From IMG/VR virus record IMGVR_UViG_3300021387_001438, positions 11,359 through 75,358 of that record: DNA of 64,000 nt, one strand, 5' to 3'. This document shows positions 48,693 to 63,975 of this stretch, piece after piece. The translations under genes were made by a program, and so were the position numbers. The notes under the pieces are model-generated. The model ran no database searches, had not been told where the DNA came from, and was given only the letters and a program-made list of their open reading frames with translations. Source of the DNA: a virus (lineage: Duplodnaviria; Caudoviricetes). Every line of letters begins with the position of its first letter. The stretch's first letter is position 1.

Positions 48693-49433
48693 TTATAAAT
48701 TCTCACAAATCCAATTATGACAGATAGTTGTATCAACAATTACCTCTGATTCATTACGAGCTTCATAGCATGCCAAGATAGCATCTGGATTTGTAATGAC
48801 CATTTTATATAATTTTGGATTTGTATTATTTCCAGCTTTATTAAATCTTTCAGCAAACCATCTTGCTTTTTCTTTATCAACAGTCCATGATAAACCTTCA
48901 GGCTTTCCATTATGACTTACTCCTCGATAGACAGTTACTCCTGCTGGAAGTGAAGCAAGTCTTTTTAGAGTATTAAATGTATCAATCTCTTTTTTATCCA
49001 TCAAGAAATCTTTATTTGCTTTTTTGAAATATCTTATTAGTTCTCTTCTATTTACATTATTATCTTGATTTGGCCATTCTTCCATTACATAGAATTCAGA
49101 TAATAGCTTTGAAAAATCTTCATTAGATAAATAGATATTAACATATTTGAAGAAAGTCAAGTAATAACTTTTATTTAACAACATGACAATTCCAAACAAA
49201 TCTTTTGCATTATCAATCTTTTCAAATGTTTCAGACTTAAAGATTTCATAATCCTCTTTTTTATATAAATCTAAAATTTTTGGATTATCTTGATTTTCTT
49301 TTACTGATACATATAAATTATTACTTGTAAACGGATGTTGAATTATAAAAGGAATTTTTGTTGCTTTAATTGGCACTGCCAAAAATAGCAACTTACTCAT
49401 TTCTTTAATCTTATCTAAATTAGTTTGTTTCAT
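48693..49433 (-). CDS. Putative ADP-ribosyltransferase-fold protein
   Basis: R-S-E triad-like motifs VYRG, LSWT, NESEV; AAGGAG RBS. Confidence 0.55.
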   Translation of the reverse strand: MKQTNLDKIKEMSKLLFLAVPIKATKIPFIIQHPFTSNNLYVSVKENQDNPKILDLYKKEDYEIFKSETFEKIDNAKDLFGIVMLLNKSYYLTFFKYVNIYLSNEDFSKLLSEFYVMEEWPNQDNNVNRRELIRYFKKANKDFLMDKKEIDTFNTLKRLASLPAGVTVYRGVSHNGKPEGLSWTVDKEKARWFAERFNKAGNNTNPKLYKMVITNPDAILACYEARNESEVIVDTTICHNWICENL

Positions 49434-49461: not shown

Positions 49462-50084
49462 TTGCCTCTACCATACACTAGCTCACTTTGCCTACACACT
49501 ACCATACTCGACTCTACCATAACATGACTGCCTGTTACTTTACCATAACTGGTCTACTCCTCGCTTTGCCGAAACTTCACTTTACTAAACCTTACCTTTG
49601 CATTTCAAATCTTGACTTCGCCCATACGATATTATGCTGGACCCAACGTCACCGATACATTGTTACACCAATCTTTGCCTAAACTAGGATGTACTATACA
49701 ATTCCAAAACGGTACCATAAATTGCTTTGCCTAAGCTCCACGATGCAAGACTTTACCAATACTCTACCTTACGTCACTAGACTTCACCTTGACAATACCA
49801 TGTCTTACTTTACCACAACTAAACACTAATTAACTTCGGTCCACTTTGCCTTGACTAAACTTATCTACACCGATACTGTTTATTAGTCTACTATACTGTA
49901 CCTCTACCTTACCAAACTTTACCATAGCACGACCAATCCTTACATCACCTTCACTAAACTTAATGGCACTTTACTTTTCCGTAACATAACCTTTCAAGAC
50001 TATGCCAATGCACAACTTCTCTTTAATACACTTTGCCAAAACGCCACCCTACCAATCTTGACTTATCCATTACAAGACGAGGCC
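49462..50084 (-). ncRNA. 5-nt periodic NGY-NN repeat array (putative guide RNA array), downstream of the RAMP gene
   Basis: Minus strand e.g. AGT-tt-AGT-gaa-GGT-ga-TGT-aa-GGA-tt-GGT-cg-TGC-tat-GGT-aa-AGT-tt-GGT-aa-GGT; GY steps of 5,6,5,5,5,5,6,5,5,5,6; no minus-strand ORF of 60 aa or more in the track. Confidence 0.75.
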
Positions 50085-50120: not shown

Positions 50121-50143
50121 GGAGAGAGACTAAATCTCTCTCC
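50121..50143 (-). promoter_or_regulatory. Hairpin spanning the stop codon of the RAMP gene
   Basis: GGAGAGAGA / TCTCTCTCC perfect 9-bp inverted repeat with a 5-nt loop containing the TAG. Confidence 0.6.
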
Positions 50144-50720
50144 AACTGAATGAACCCTTACCGGAATTACGCCACTGAAGAAGTCCATTGAATTTTCCAT
50201 AATCTAACCATTCTTTAATTAATGGTAGGTCTTCATCACACAACATAACAATCTTAAATTTACATGTTGCACCGGCAGCAATTTCTTCAGAAATAGCAAG
50301 CGAGATTCTTTCACCCTGCATTGTTTGACATCTTAGAGGTCTCTGACATTCTGTGATTTCAGAATAATTCTCAATCACATTTTCTCTTCCTTCAACAAAT
50401 ACTCTTAGGTCAATATGCTTCTTGAAGGCTTTTAATTGACTAGATAGAGTACCTTTAACTTTTGATAGTGCTGAACATGCAGACTTGAAGAATCCTTTTA
50501 ACTGATAGTCATAAATAAATGGCTTACCATCTTTGGTTCTTGGAAAGAATGTTTTACCTTTATCAACAACATTATCTTTTCCAATGGCTTCAATCTCTTC
50601 TTCTAGCTTCTGAGCATCTGGAGCCTTACTACCGATGAATGAACGATATACATCTTTATCTCCTGTTTGAGTTCCTAATAAACCCTGTAAAAAAGTTACT
50701 TCAATATTTAATGTTTTCAT
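50130..50720 (-). CDS. Stand-alone Cas7/RAMP-like protein (Vipr-like), 196 aa
   Basis: TAAGGAG RBS supports MKTLNIEV at 50720; RAMP hallmarks LNIEVTFLQGLLGT, GKPFIYDYQLKGFFK and the G-rich loop YGKFNGLLQWRNSGKGSF. Confidence 0.75.
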   Translation of the reverse strand: MKTLNIEVTFLQGLLGTQTGDKDVYRSFIGSKAPDAQKLEEEIEAIGKDNVVDKGKTFFPRTKDGKPFIYDYQLKGFFKSACSALSKVKGTLSSQLKAFKKHIDLRVFVEGRENVIENYSEITECQRPLRCQTMQGERISLAISEEIAAGATCKFKIVMLCDEDLPLIKEWLDYGKFNGLLQWRNSGKGSFSWREI

Positions 50721-50802
50721 AATTTGTTTTAATCTCCTTAATTTATTATTTGTTTTAATCTTCTGAATTTTTTGGTCTTCACATCTTGGATAATCTACAT
50801 CT

Positions 50803-51103
50803 TTTGCCAATGCCATACAAAACCACACTTTACCATTACCGGACCGGACAATACTTTTCCATTGCACTTTTGGACAATACTTTACCAACACGACAGCCAA
50901 CTATTCTATGCTGGTACTTTACCAACACTGTTCCAAGCTATTCCATTACAGTACCATACCAAACCTTACCAACACTCCACTGAACAAGGCCTTGCCGTCA
51001 CAAATCTTTTCTTGGTATCACATCACCATCACAAAACCACGCTTTACCATTACCGTCACAACGCCACACCTCACCGTCACAACGCCACACATCACCGATA
51101 CTT
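50803..51103 (-). ncRNA. 5-nt periodic NGY-NN repeat array, upstream of the RAMP gene
   Basis: Minus strand GGT-ga-TGT-gt-GGC-gt-TGT-gac-GGT-ga-GGT-gt-GGC-gt-TGT-gac-GGT; steps 5,5,5,6,5,5,5,6; internal 21- and 26-bp period duplications. Confidence 0.75.
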
Positions 51104-51685: not shown

Positions 51686-51727
51686 AATGTAAATATTAAT
51701 TCTTTGAACTTCTAAACTTACATACTT

Positions 51728-51756
51728 ATTATATAATACTTTTTATACTTTGTACA
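51728..51756 (-). promoter_or_regulatory. sigma70-type promoter reading into the RAMP/array locus
   Basis: TGTACA-17 nt-TATAAT on the minus strand. Confidence 0.5.
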
Positions 51757-52058
51757 CATATTTTTAATAAAATTTTATTTTTTTTCTTCTTATAAAAATA
51801 CGTGTGTGCACATATGCACACGTAATAAAAAATAAAATATAAATAAGATATGAACATGAATAAAATAAAAAATATTTATATTCATAATGATGCACCCAAA
51901 ATATTTTGAATATATGACTGTTCAGAAATATTTATTATGTTTTATGGATTTTTAGTATACCTAAAATTTGAATACGATTATAGCTTGATTGTTTTGATTT
52001 TGGATTGTGTGTTTAACGATTTATAGGAGAATATTTTAGGCACATCATTATAAATATA

Positions 52059-52101
52059 AATATTAAATTTGATTGATTTGAATATTAAATTTGATTGATT
52101 T
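52059..52101. repeat. Tandem direct repeat, 21 bp x2
   Basis: AATATTAAATTTGATTGATTT at 52059-52079 and 52081-52101. Confidence 0.85.
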
Positions 52102-53158
52102 ATTTTCTATATTTATTATATATCATAACTTGTAAAACGTAAATAAGTTAATGTAAAAACAATAAATTTTATTGGTTACGATGAAACAAAAAACAGCGAA
52201 AATGCTATACTGGCGAAGCAGAATAGCTGGAAAATTAGGAACAATAAAAAGGAAAAGAGAATGAAAATTACTTAAAAAGTTACTTAAAAACAACTTAAAA
52301 ACTTTTTTTGAGATGAAAATTAGAGTAATGAAAATGATTCAAAAATGCTGATTTAAAATGTAAATATTCCGTAACTGGAACTAAGGACTGGTAATTTAAA
52401 CTTTCAATTGGAAGTTTTAAACTATTAAATAAATTTGTGTAAAAATGTGTAAAGAACTGTAAAAAATTGTAAATCAAAAATTTTATTAAATAAGTGTGTA
52501 AGTTTAGATGAAAAACAGAGCAAAGCTCTTACACTTTTTTTACACTTTTTTACAAAACTTTACAAATTTTGGATTTAAACTCACAGATACAAATTTATTT
52601 TAAATCTATAAAGTGGGTACGGAATACTTACGTTTCAATTTTTCCTTATATAGAATGTCATTCTATATATAATAAACAACCTTCTTTTTTTCTTTTATTT
52701 TTTTTAATAATTTAAAATATTTTAATAAAGAAAATATAAAAATAATAAATAAGGTATAAAAACATATATTTTTAAAAAATAATAATAATAAAGAAGTGGC
52801 TCCAGAGTTTAAATTTTAAATTTTTGGACTCATTTTTCATTTTCAAAATTTTTTTATTTTTTCCACAAAATTAAAAACTTAAAAATAATTTTTTGGTTTC
52901 CACAAAAATTTTCTTGCGCACACACGGCCACATGCACGCAGGAGAAATTTCTCATCAACTAAAATTTTTTCCGGAAATTTTTTCGTCACCACCAACTTAA
53001 AAATTTTTTCCTCCACTTGTCAGAAGACAGGGGAGGTGGGGTCCCTCTCTCCGTCAATTCTGTTTCAATAGTCAGAAAATTATTTTTTAGAAATGGTATA
53101 CTTTTTTTCTCCTTCGATATATAATTAAATAGAAATAATTAATAGGAGGATTCTGCTC

Positions 53159-53719
53159 ATGAATATTAATGATAAGTCAAATGGTTTGAAGAAGGTCAAC
53201 CATGAAAAAATTAAATCTCAATCAGATGTGTATGAAATTTATCTTGGTACATTCATCGACAATACTTTTACATGGTATTCAGTAAAAGAAATGAAATCTT
53301 TGACTGAGGCCTACAAAGAGTTTAAGTCTTATGTTAATACTCAGTTGAAGTATACCGACGAAGAACTACAGCAGGTCTGGGATACTGGACGACTTGACAT
53401 TGAATTACGTCAGGGCTCCAAGCTTTTGAACTGGGTCGGCATTTACTCCAGAGAAGTTAAACCTCTTGATAAGAAGGAAGAAAAAGAAGTTGAGAAGGGC
53501 GACATCAAAAATAAAGAAGCCAAGAAAAATAAAAAGGATTCTGTTGATACTGCCAAGCTCAGAGAAAAATTCTTCAATGATTCTGTAAACTGTGAATCTG
53601 TTCTATTAAAGACTCATTACCAATCTCATGATGAGTTCGTTGTACGGACACATGATGGTAAAACAAAGTGCCTAAATGTCTACGGCACAGATGAAGATTC
53701 CCTTGAGATTGCTGAATGA
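53159..53719 (+). CDS. Hypothetical protein, lone plus-strand gene in the minus block
   Basis: AGGAGG RBS, TATAAT at 53120-53125, own terminator. Confidence 0.75.
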   Translation: MNINDKSNGLKKVNHEKIKSQSDVYEIYLGTFIDNTFTWYSVKEMKSLTEAYKEFKSYVNTQLKYTDEELQQVWDTGRLDIELRQGSKLLNWVGIYSREVKPLDKKEEKEVEKGDIKNKEAKKNKKDSVDTAKLREKFFNDSVNCESVLLKTHYQSHDEFVVRTHDGKTKCLNVYGTDEDSLEIAE

Positions 53720-63655: not shown

Positions 63656-63739
63656 TATTTGTTTAGTATAGGGGGCCCCGGGGGCTATACTATTTATATA
63701 ATAAAAAATGACTTAAGTTTGATTTAAGTCATTCATTAT

Positions 63740-63975
63740 TATTTACAATTTTATTATACAATATTTTTTGATTATTCAAAATCGCAAAATATTATATTTT
63801 AATTTTAATTAAGAATTTTGTCTCTTAATTATTTACAACTTTATTATATTATAATTTGATAATATTTAAAATCGCAAAATTTTATATTTTAATTTTTTTG
63901 ATTTTTAAAAGTTGTTTCTTATTTATTTTCAACTTTATTATATTATATTTTTATAATATTTAAAATCGCAAGATA
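63740..63975 (-). promoter_or_regulatory. Three tandem ~90-bp units carrying early promoters
   Basis: AAAATCGCAA at 63778, 63868 and 63962; on the minus strand two units read TTGCGA-18 nt-TATAAT. Confidence 0.65.

What the first reader, a model, noticed from the sequence alone, without database searches (positions are those of the whole stretch)
50130..50720. Stand-alone, very compact Cas7-like protein with no Cas5, Cas6, Cas8 or nuclease partner
Seen: N-terminal beta strand LNIEVTFLQGLLGT, GKPFIYDYQLKGFFK (compare the P.IPGSSLKG motif of RAMPs) and a C-terminal G-rich loop YGKFNGLLQWRNSGKGSF. The track's 60-aa N-terminal extension is just the array read in frame; the RBS sits at 50731-50740. 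Inference: a self-sufficient filament-forming effector, or alternatively an anti-CRISPR decoy.
Basis: partly seen in the sequence, partly recalled or inferred. Interest (0 to 1): 0.8.

Follow-up and report, generated by a model that had tools for sequence, protein, structure and literature searches.

The report
Phage Vipr protein of VIPR system
The lone Cas7-like gene is real and is the Vipr protein of a VIPR system, a CRISPR-related, phage-borne RNA-guided DNA silencer first described in 2026 preprints, so it is a further example of a published kind rather than a new one.

Summary

A family profile aligns over the full length with the tested Vipr protein family of Escherichia phage SUSP1 (hhalign E 3e-5). 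The gene sits between two same-strand non-coding arrays of 5-nt N-G-Y-N-N units. In 93 of 95 related loci the homologue has such an array beside it.

The complete 75-kb phage genome has no match to the Cas1, Cas5, Cas6 or Pfam RAMP models, and no neighbouring gene is conserved across relatives. This matches VIPR systems (bioRxiv 2026): Vipr polymerises on a pentamer-repeat guide RNA and silences double-stranded DNA targets.

The anti-CRISPR decoy alternative is not.

Local peculiarities:
- GGY appears only at the start of roughly 26-nt blocks, each set off by one extra base.
- The two SUSP1 residues that read the first G are replaced.
- There is no accessory gene and no 3' tail.

Targets were not found. 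This scan has already met VIPR loci in at least 154 other genomes.

The parts
50130..50720 (-). vipr gene: 196-aa minimal RAMP (single RRM, thumb hairpin about residues 122-147, G-loop 179-190)
50734..50739 (-). ribosome-binding site AAGGAG, 13 nt before the ATG at 50720
   Evidence: read directly from the sequence; homologues start at this Met
50803..51103 (-). upstream vrRNA-type array: about 12-14 blocks of N-G-Y-N-N pentamers, each block opened by one extra base plus GGY
   Evidence: G periodicity 5.2 nt with power 25; Viterbi parse; no excess RNA structure, z -0.07; one-pentamer indel against a near-identical phage
49462..50084 (-). downstream vrRNA-type array: 23-24 blocks of 4-7 pentamers (mostly 5, i.e. 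26 nt per block)
   Evidence: G periodicity 5.2 nt with power 55; parse; 10 of the window's 29 GGYAAAG sites lie here; the two arrays are the only period-5 regions in the 75-kb genome
51666..51756 (-). candidate early promoters for the leftward operon that would carry both arrays and vipr (weak, consensus match only)
   Evidence: two sigma-70-like sites scoring 10/12 on the minus strand, and no terminator-like site on that strand between them and 48600; promoter-like sites are not enriched over shuffles, so this is only a suggestion

Best explanation
The gene encodes a Vipr protein, the minimal RAMP of a VIPR (Viral Interference Programmable Repeat) system. The two flanking arrays encode its guide RNAs (vrRNAs). 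By analogy with the tested SUSP1 system, the operon transcript would be cut into short pentamer-repeat RNAs. One Vipr protomer would bind each 5-nt unit and hide the G-Y scaffold bases between the thumb and the G-loop. The two variable bases of each unit would be left exposed, and the resulting helical filament would pair with double-stranded DNA using two bases in every three. It would then sit on the target and block transcription, most likely of a competing phage, prophage or satellite, or of a host gene. Shown here: the RAMP fold, homology to the SUSP1 Vipr family, the pentamer arrays on the same strand, their near-universal linkage to the gene, faster divergence of the variable positions than of the scaffold, and the lack of Cas partners. 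Inferred only: transcription and processing of the arrays, filament assembly, DNA binding, the skip rule, and silencing.
For: Sequence: profile A1 hits a type VII Cas7 at E 6.6e-6 and Csm4 at E 1e-3 at the G-loop. A1 against the SUSP1 Vipr family A2 gives hhalign E 3.2e-5 over 185 columns, end to end. The G2/Y3-reading W178 and R179 of SUSP1 are kept as W183 and R184 in 96% of sequences.
Arrays: period 5.2 nt with power 55 and 25, against an expectation near 1. Units are N-G(86-93%)-Y(83-86%)-N-N. This matches the GGY/NN grammar and the YNNNG and 'staggered' variants described in bioRxiv 10.64898/2026.04.26.720920.
Linkage: 14 of 15 viral or metagenome loci and 79 of 80 MAG loci have a period-5 array within 400 nt on the gene's strand.
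Variable positions: NN identity is about 50%, against 72% for the scaffold G and 83% for the CDS, in a relative whose protein is 89% identical. A near-identical phage differs in the upstream array by one 5-nt unit.
Context: a complete phage genome with direct terminal repeats and no match to the Cas1, Cas5, Cas6 or Pfam RAMP models.
Against: Homology to the tested Vipr is remote (hhalign probability 73%, about 17% identity). Inner units lack the first G, which SUSP1 needs: GGY>AGY is among the GGY substitutions tested there, and perturbing GGY abolished silencing. No vap accessory gene and no conserved 3' tail were found. Blocks carry only 8-14 variable bases, which is little specificity if each block is a separate guide. 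No target was found in 1.5 Mb of related phage DNA under four decoding rules. No expression data could be obtained. The VIPR literature consists of 2026 preprints.
Confidence: 0.88

Rival explanations
1. Same protein-RNA machinery, but a different reading rule or target class from SUSP1. For example, each 26-nt block might be a mini-guide, several blocks might be read together across the extra base, three variable bases per unit might be used, or the target might be RNA rather than DNA.
For: Inner units are N-G-Y-N-N, with the first position A-rich rather than G. The SUSP1 G1 readers H17 and D177 are T/S17 and Q182 here. A mean period of 5.15-5.2 nt and a one-base reset are conserved across the clade. 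The closest solved folds are RNA-targeting Csm3 and type VII Cas7.
Against: The preprint already lists YNNNG repeats and staggered arrays within VIPR and reports DNA targeting for the types it tested. No invariant Asp lies in the loop after strand 1, where Csm3 has its catalytic Asp (the Csm3 position is from my own knowledge). None of my alternative decoding rules gave a target signal either.
Confidence: 0.25
2. The arrays act as DNA, as iterons of an origin, partition or packaging site whose 5.2-bp period is half a helical turn. The protein would then be their DNA-binding partner, not an RNA-guided effector.
For: The period of 5.15-5.2 is close to half of 10.4 bp. The locus lies about 1 kb from a very AT-rich divergent intergenic region at 51700-53100 that could be an origin.
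Against: The protein has a RAMP RNA-binding fold with a conserved G-loop. The G-rich strand is always the gene's sense strand. The variable positions diverge faster than synonymous sites, which iterons would not do. The 5.2 average arises from 5-nt units plus one extra base per block, not from a smooth period.
Confidence: 0.04
3. An anti-CRISPR decoy: a Cas7 mimic (or decoy RNAs) that poisons host type I/III/VII effector complexes.
For: The fold is close to Csm3 and type VII Cas7. The gene lies among small early-region genes, where phages often keep counter-defence genes (the placement rule is from my own knowledge).
Against: The flanking arrays contain no CRISPR-like repeat. The protein keeps its own RNA-binding residues and is almost always paired with a pentamer array of its own. 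Relatives occur across many host families, which does not fit mimicry of one host complex.
Confidence: 0.03

Closest known systems
Type II VIPR system of Escherichia phage SUSP1 (Vipr + vap1 + four vrRNAs; bioRxiv 10.64898/2026.04.26.720920, .720927, 10.64898/2026.10.15.759431)
   Same: A RAMP of about 195 aa with the same N-terminal strand and a C-terminal G-x-x-W-R...G-x-F loop. Pentamer-repeat arrays lie both upstream and downstream of the gene on its strand. The carrier is a phage, and there are no cas genes.
   Different: SUSP1 vrRNAs are runs of about 12 strict GGYNN units, each with its own upstream element and a structured 3' tail, and a vap1 gene follows vipr. Here GGY occurs only at block starts. 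Blocks are 4-7 units, abut one another and are offset by one base. No tail or vap was found. The G1-reading H17 and D177 are T/S and Q.
VIPR systems with alternative YNNNG / NNNNG repeats and 'staggered' vrRNA arrays (same preprint, Methods and fig. S18 legend); non-canonical WGT/NN and TGH/NN arrays (bioRxiv 10.64898/2026.10.21.760802)
   Same: Only one G and one Y are fixed per pentamer, and successive guides are offset by 1 nt within a continuous array.
   Different: I could not see the figures or data tables, so I cannot say which of the seven types this clade belongs to, or whether it was among the 667 representative systems.
CRISPR Cas7 backbone proteins: Csm3 (type III-A, e.g. 6xn3_F) and type VII Cas7 (8yhd/8z4j)
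   Different: There is no CRISPR array, no Cas5/Cas6/Cas10/Cas14 partner and no second RAMP in the genome. The guide period is 5 nt rather than 6 nt (the 6-nt figure comes and my own knowledge).

Membership tests
VIPR system / Vipr protein | Homology to an experimentally characterised Vipr (SUSP1) | tested here: met
   Profile-profile hhalign E 3.2e-5, probability 73%, 185 aligned columns covering both proteins end to end. The relationship is remote, about 17% identity.
VIPR system / Vipr protein | Gene flanked, on its own strand, by tandem pentanucleotide repeats with a fixed GGY (or related) scaffold and variable NN | tested here: met
   Two arrays with period 5.2. Units are N-G-Y-N-N, with GGY at block starts. 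93 of 95 related loci have an adjacent same-strand array.
VIPR system / Vipr protein | NN positions hypervariable relative to the scaffold | tested here: met
   NN identity 49-52% against 72% for the scaffold G and 83% for the CDS in relative L097. This rests on one pairwise alignment with many gaps, so it is moderate support.
VIPR system / Vipr protein | Strict first G of GGY in every unit (required in SUSP1) | tested here: not met
   In inner units position 1 is G in only 18-31%. The preprint allows YNNNG/NNNNG variants, so this excludes type II-like grammar, not VIPR membership.
VIPR system / Vipr protein | Adjacent vap accessory gene | tested here: not met
   No neighbour within about 3-4 kb is conserved across 90 loci. 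Only XRE repressors and SSB recur, at variable positions, and neither is in the window. The preprint notes stand-alone vipr genes, so this feature is not obligatory.
VIPR system / Vipr protein | Structured 3' tail on each vrRNA (type II) | tested here: inconclusive
   No recurring non-pentamer element lies between blocks. Array RNA is no more structured than shuffles, z -0.07. There is no Rfam hit, and so no hammerhead.
VIPR system / Vipr protein | vrRNAs expressed, bound by Vipr as a helical filament, recognising dsDNA with a one-base skip | not testable with these tools
No targets were found in local data.
VIPR system / Vipr protein | Viral or proviral, non-CRISPR context | tested here: met
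   Complete 75,358-bp phage genome with direct terminal repeats. Capsid, terminase and DNA polymerase genes are present. No Cas1, Cas5, Cas6 or Pfam RAMP matches.
CRISPR-Cas Cas7 (Csm3 / type VII Cas7) | Cas7 RAMP fold | tested here: met
CRISPR-Cas Cas7 (Csm3 / type VII Cas7) | Encoded in a cas operon beside a CRISPR repeat-spacer array, with Cas5/Cas6/large-subunit partners | tested here: not met
   No cas genes in the genome. No CRISPR-like repeats in the window.

The most novel reading that the evidence does not exclude
This very large gut-phage clade may be a mechanistically distinct VIPR variant. Its units need only G-Y, because the two residues that read the first G in SUSP1 are replaced by Thr/Ser and Gln. 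Its guides are written as abutting blocks of about 26 nt, each reset by one extra base and opened by GGY(A)(A). It has no tail and no accessory protein. If so, guide processing, filament nucleation and the decoding rule (short mini-guides acting together, or composite guides read across the extra base) would differ from the published type II mechanism.
Probability: 0.3. Interest if true: 0.6.

Novelty: new member of a known kind. Interest (0 to 1): 0.4.

Why it matters
VIPR is a newly described RNA-guided system, proposed to be ancestral to CRISPR, with only a few tested examples. This locus shows that a vap-less, tail-less form with block-structured arrays is extremely common in gut phages and in phage-sized contigs binned mostly with Clostridia: at least 1,592 clusters at 50% identity. 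It also offers a natural test case. The protein residues that read the first scaffold G co-vary with loss of that G in the guides. That prediction can be tested by swapping residues and units, and it could widen the design rules for this small programmable DNA binder. As a discovery it is not new.

Tried and rejected
- **Pfam and PHROGs on the protein:** nothing useful. Pfam RAMPs does not detect it even in a six-frame search.
- **Target search:** I took the variable bases of 31 parsed blocks and scanned 1.5 Mb (own genome plus about 95 related loci, both strands). I tried the published one-base-skip rule with single blocks, adjacent block pairs with junction offsets -1 to +3, clustering of hits from different blocks, and three-variable-base rules with period 3 or 4. 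None exceeded shuffled guides. The period-5 self-match control worked. The database is tiny and the host is unknown, so this says little.
- **Collection-wide pattern scans:** not attempted. Single blocks give at most 14 specified bases, which would yield hundreds of chance hits, and the junction rule for joining blocks is unknown.
- **Homo-trimer prediction:** no verdict, so not evidence either way.
- **First genome-contig scan with the broad alignment:** failed. It was repeated with a closer alignment.
- **Supplementary tables of the VIPR preprint:** not held, so the VIPR type could not be assigned.
- **Ideas considered before finding the VIPR papers, then dropped:** TRAP-like ring binding, primase start-site arrays, Chi-site arrays and parS/iteron arrays. 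The RAMP fold and the published grammar explain the data better.

Full report
**Observation.** The minus strand of the window carries a 256-aa frame at 50130..50900. The real gene starts at the ATG at 50720. AAGGAG sits at 50739-50734, and most homologues are 196-198 aa and align from that Met. The family is very large: more than 3,900 clusters at 90% identity and 1,592 representatives at 50% identity with E <= 1e-3. Pfam gives nothing, and PHROGs gives only a non-significant hit.

**Surroundings.** The gene lies in a leftward operon of small genes of a complete tailed-phage genome. The genome is 75,358 bp, has direct terminal repeats and is rated 100% complete by CheckV. It encodes a capsid protein, terminase, DNA polymerase, primase and helicase.

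Both intergenic spaces next to the gene (49462-50084 and 50803-51103) are non-coding, richer in G+C than the rest, and G-rich/C-poor on the gene's strand. Fourteen of the window's 29 GGYAAAG sites fall in them.

A Fourier analysis of G positions gives a sharp peak at 5.2 nt, with power 55 and 25 against an expectation near 1. These two stretches are the only such regions in the whole genome.

A Viterbi parse explains the 5.2-nt figure. The arrays are rows of 5-nt units N-G-Y-N-N grouped in blocks of 4-7 units, mostly 5, so a typical block is 26 nt. Each block is preceded by one extra base and opened by GGY, usually GGYAA followed by AGY. This agrees with an earlier first-stage note on the same stretch.

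**Conservation of the pairing.**
- In 11 IMG/VR loci, 4 metagenome loci and 80 MAG contigs that encode homologues (42-68% identity), 93 of 95 have a period-5 array within 400 nt of the gene on the same strand. It is usually downstream, and sometimes upstream or on both sides.
- The block grammar, with one extra base and a GGY start, recurs in phages from 30% to 65% G+C.
- No other neighbouring gene is conserved. Only XRE-type repressors and SSB recur, at variable distances, and neither is in the window.

**What the protein is.** An AlphaFold2 model built from 73 homologues is confident (pLDDT 89.5, pTM 0.82). Its order of elements is that of a RAMP: strand 1, an inserted helical region, helix 1 starting at the Y-x-x-K-G-F-F-K motif, two strands, a long beta hairpin (122-147) carrying invariant R127, R130 and R138, a strand, helix 2, the G-rich loop and the last strand.

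- Foldseek against the PDB returns 181 matches at E <= 1e-3. The list is headed by Cas7 of type VII systems and by Csm3.
- A family profile also finds the type VII Cas7 by sequence (E 6.6e-6) and Csm4 (E 1e-3) at the G-loop.
- BFVD's best match is a 55%-identical gut-virus protein already labelled 'Cas system-associated RAMP superfamily protein'. The ESM Atlas neighbours are viral clusters, one with the same label.

**What the system is.** A literature search for pentanucleotide periodicity in phages led to four 2026 bioRxiv preprints on VIPR systems. They report the following:
- Vipr is a minimal RAMP of about 20 kDa found mostly in phages and prophages.
- It is flanked by intergenic arrays that give vrRNAs made of GGY/NN pentamers.
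- One protomer binds each repeat in a right-handed helical filament that hides GGY and presents NN.
- The complex recognises double-stranded DNA using two bases in every three, and it silences transcription.
- Seven types exist, with variant repeats (NNNGG, YNNNG, NNNNG) and 'staggered' arrays whose vrRNAs are offset by 1 nt.
- Some vipr genes stand alone.

I took the SUSP1 locus from GenBank. Vipr is L012:28474-29061(-), vap1 lies directly downstream, and GGYNN tracts with tails lie on both sides. I then built its family alignment. Profile-profile comparison with the window's family gives E 3.2e-5 over 185 columns, end to end.

According to the cryo-EM preprint, W178 and R179 of SUSP1 hold the second G and the pyrimidine. 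Here they are W183 and R184, in 96% of sequences. The two residues that read the first G, H17 and D177, are Thr/Ser17 and Gln182. That fits arrays in which the first G is kept only at block starts. This co-variation is an inference from an alignment, not a demonstrated contact.

**Behaviour of the arrays.**
- A near-identical phage from another sample differs in the upstream array by exactly one 5-nt unit.
- In a relative whose protein is 89% identical, the CDS is 83% identical in DNA and third codon positions are 69% identical. The variable array positions are only about 50% identical, and the scaffold G is 72%.
- The upstream array RNA folds no better than shuffled sequence (z -0.07), and no Rfam family, including ribozymes, is found.
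- No terminator-like site separates the arrays from the flanking genes on the minus strand. The arrays are therefore probably co-transcribed with the operon and processed afterwards. This is inferred.

**Mechanism and rivals.** The best explanation (0.88) is a VIPR effector and its guides, working as in SUSP1. The fold, the homology, the array grammar, the linkage and the lack of Cas partners are shown here. Expression, filament assembly, DNA binding and silencing are inferred.

Within that frame, the reading rule of this clade may differ (0.25). Blocks carry only 8-14 variable bases, the first G is dispensable, and there is no tail and no vap. A DNA-level iteron role (0.04) and an anti-CRISPR decoy (0.03) are poorly supported.

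**Novelty.** The kind is published as preprints, including relaxed repeats, staggered arrays and stand-alone genes. This scan has already noted VIPR loci in at least 154 genomes, two of them sharing sequence words with this protein. I therefore file it as a new member of a known kind. What it adds is modest: the size of this clade in gut phages and in phage-sized MAG contigs binned mostly with Clostridia, the precise 26-nt block grammar, the unit-wise indel, and the replacement of the G1-reading residues.

**Limits.** The VIPR type could not be assigned because figures and tables are not held. Targets were not found. Expression data could not be obtained.

Noticed in passing
window 48693-49433 (-): A 246-aa gene directly after the downstream array matches PHROG 4776 (unknown function, E 2e-34) and has no Pfam hit. 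An earlier first-stage note suggested an ADP-ribosyltransferase fold. It is not conserved next to vipr in relatives, so it is probably not an accessory (vap) gene.
   Followed up: partly
window 51700-53100: A very AT-rich (12-25% G+C) divergent intergenic region with several short tandem repeats and a small hairpin at 52517-52529. It lies between the leftward early operon and a rightward gene at 53159, and could hold the early promoters or an origin.
   Followed up: no
window 63738-63975 and genome ends: A 94-nt unit is repeated 2.6 times near the window's end. The first and last roughly 110 nt of the 75,358-bp genome are identical (direct terminal repeat), so the genome is complete.
   Followed up: partly
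L003:5026-5500 versus L003:6576-6900: One related locus carries two array dialects. Upstream, beyond an intervening gene, lies a strict GGYNN array with period 4.95 and no one-base resets. Downstream lies the block-type array with period 5.2. This may mean two VIPR guide sets in one phage, or solo guides for another Vipr.
   Followed up: no
L098 (contig end) and L006, L008: Several assemblies break at or just after the downstream array, including a 99%-identical phage whose 74.6-kb contig ends right after vipr. The arrays seem to be hard to assemble or variable within samples.
   Followed up: no
L017-L096, 1-3 kb upstream of vipr: About half of the related loci have XRE-family (cI/Cro-like) repressor genes, and 19 have an SSB gene, near vipr. 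This places the system in the immunity/early-replication region of temperate phages, mostly on contigs binned with Clostridia.
   Followed up: partly
window 51052-51093 and 50817-50841 / 51031-51055: Recent in-register duplications lie inside the upstream array: a 21-nt unit repeated at 95% identity, and a 25-nt block repeated at 96% identity 214 nt apart. This suggests that guides multiply by local duplication.
   Followed up: partly
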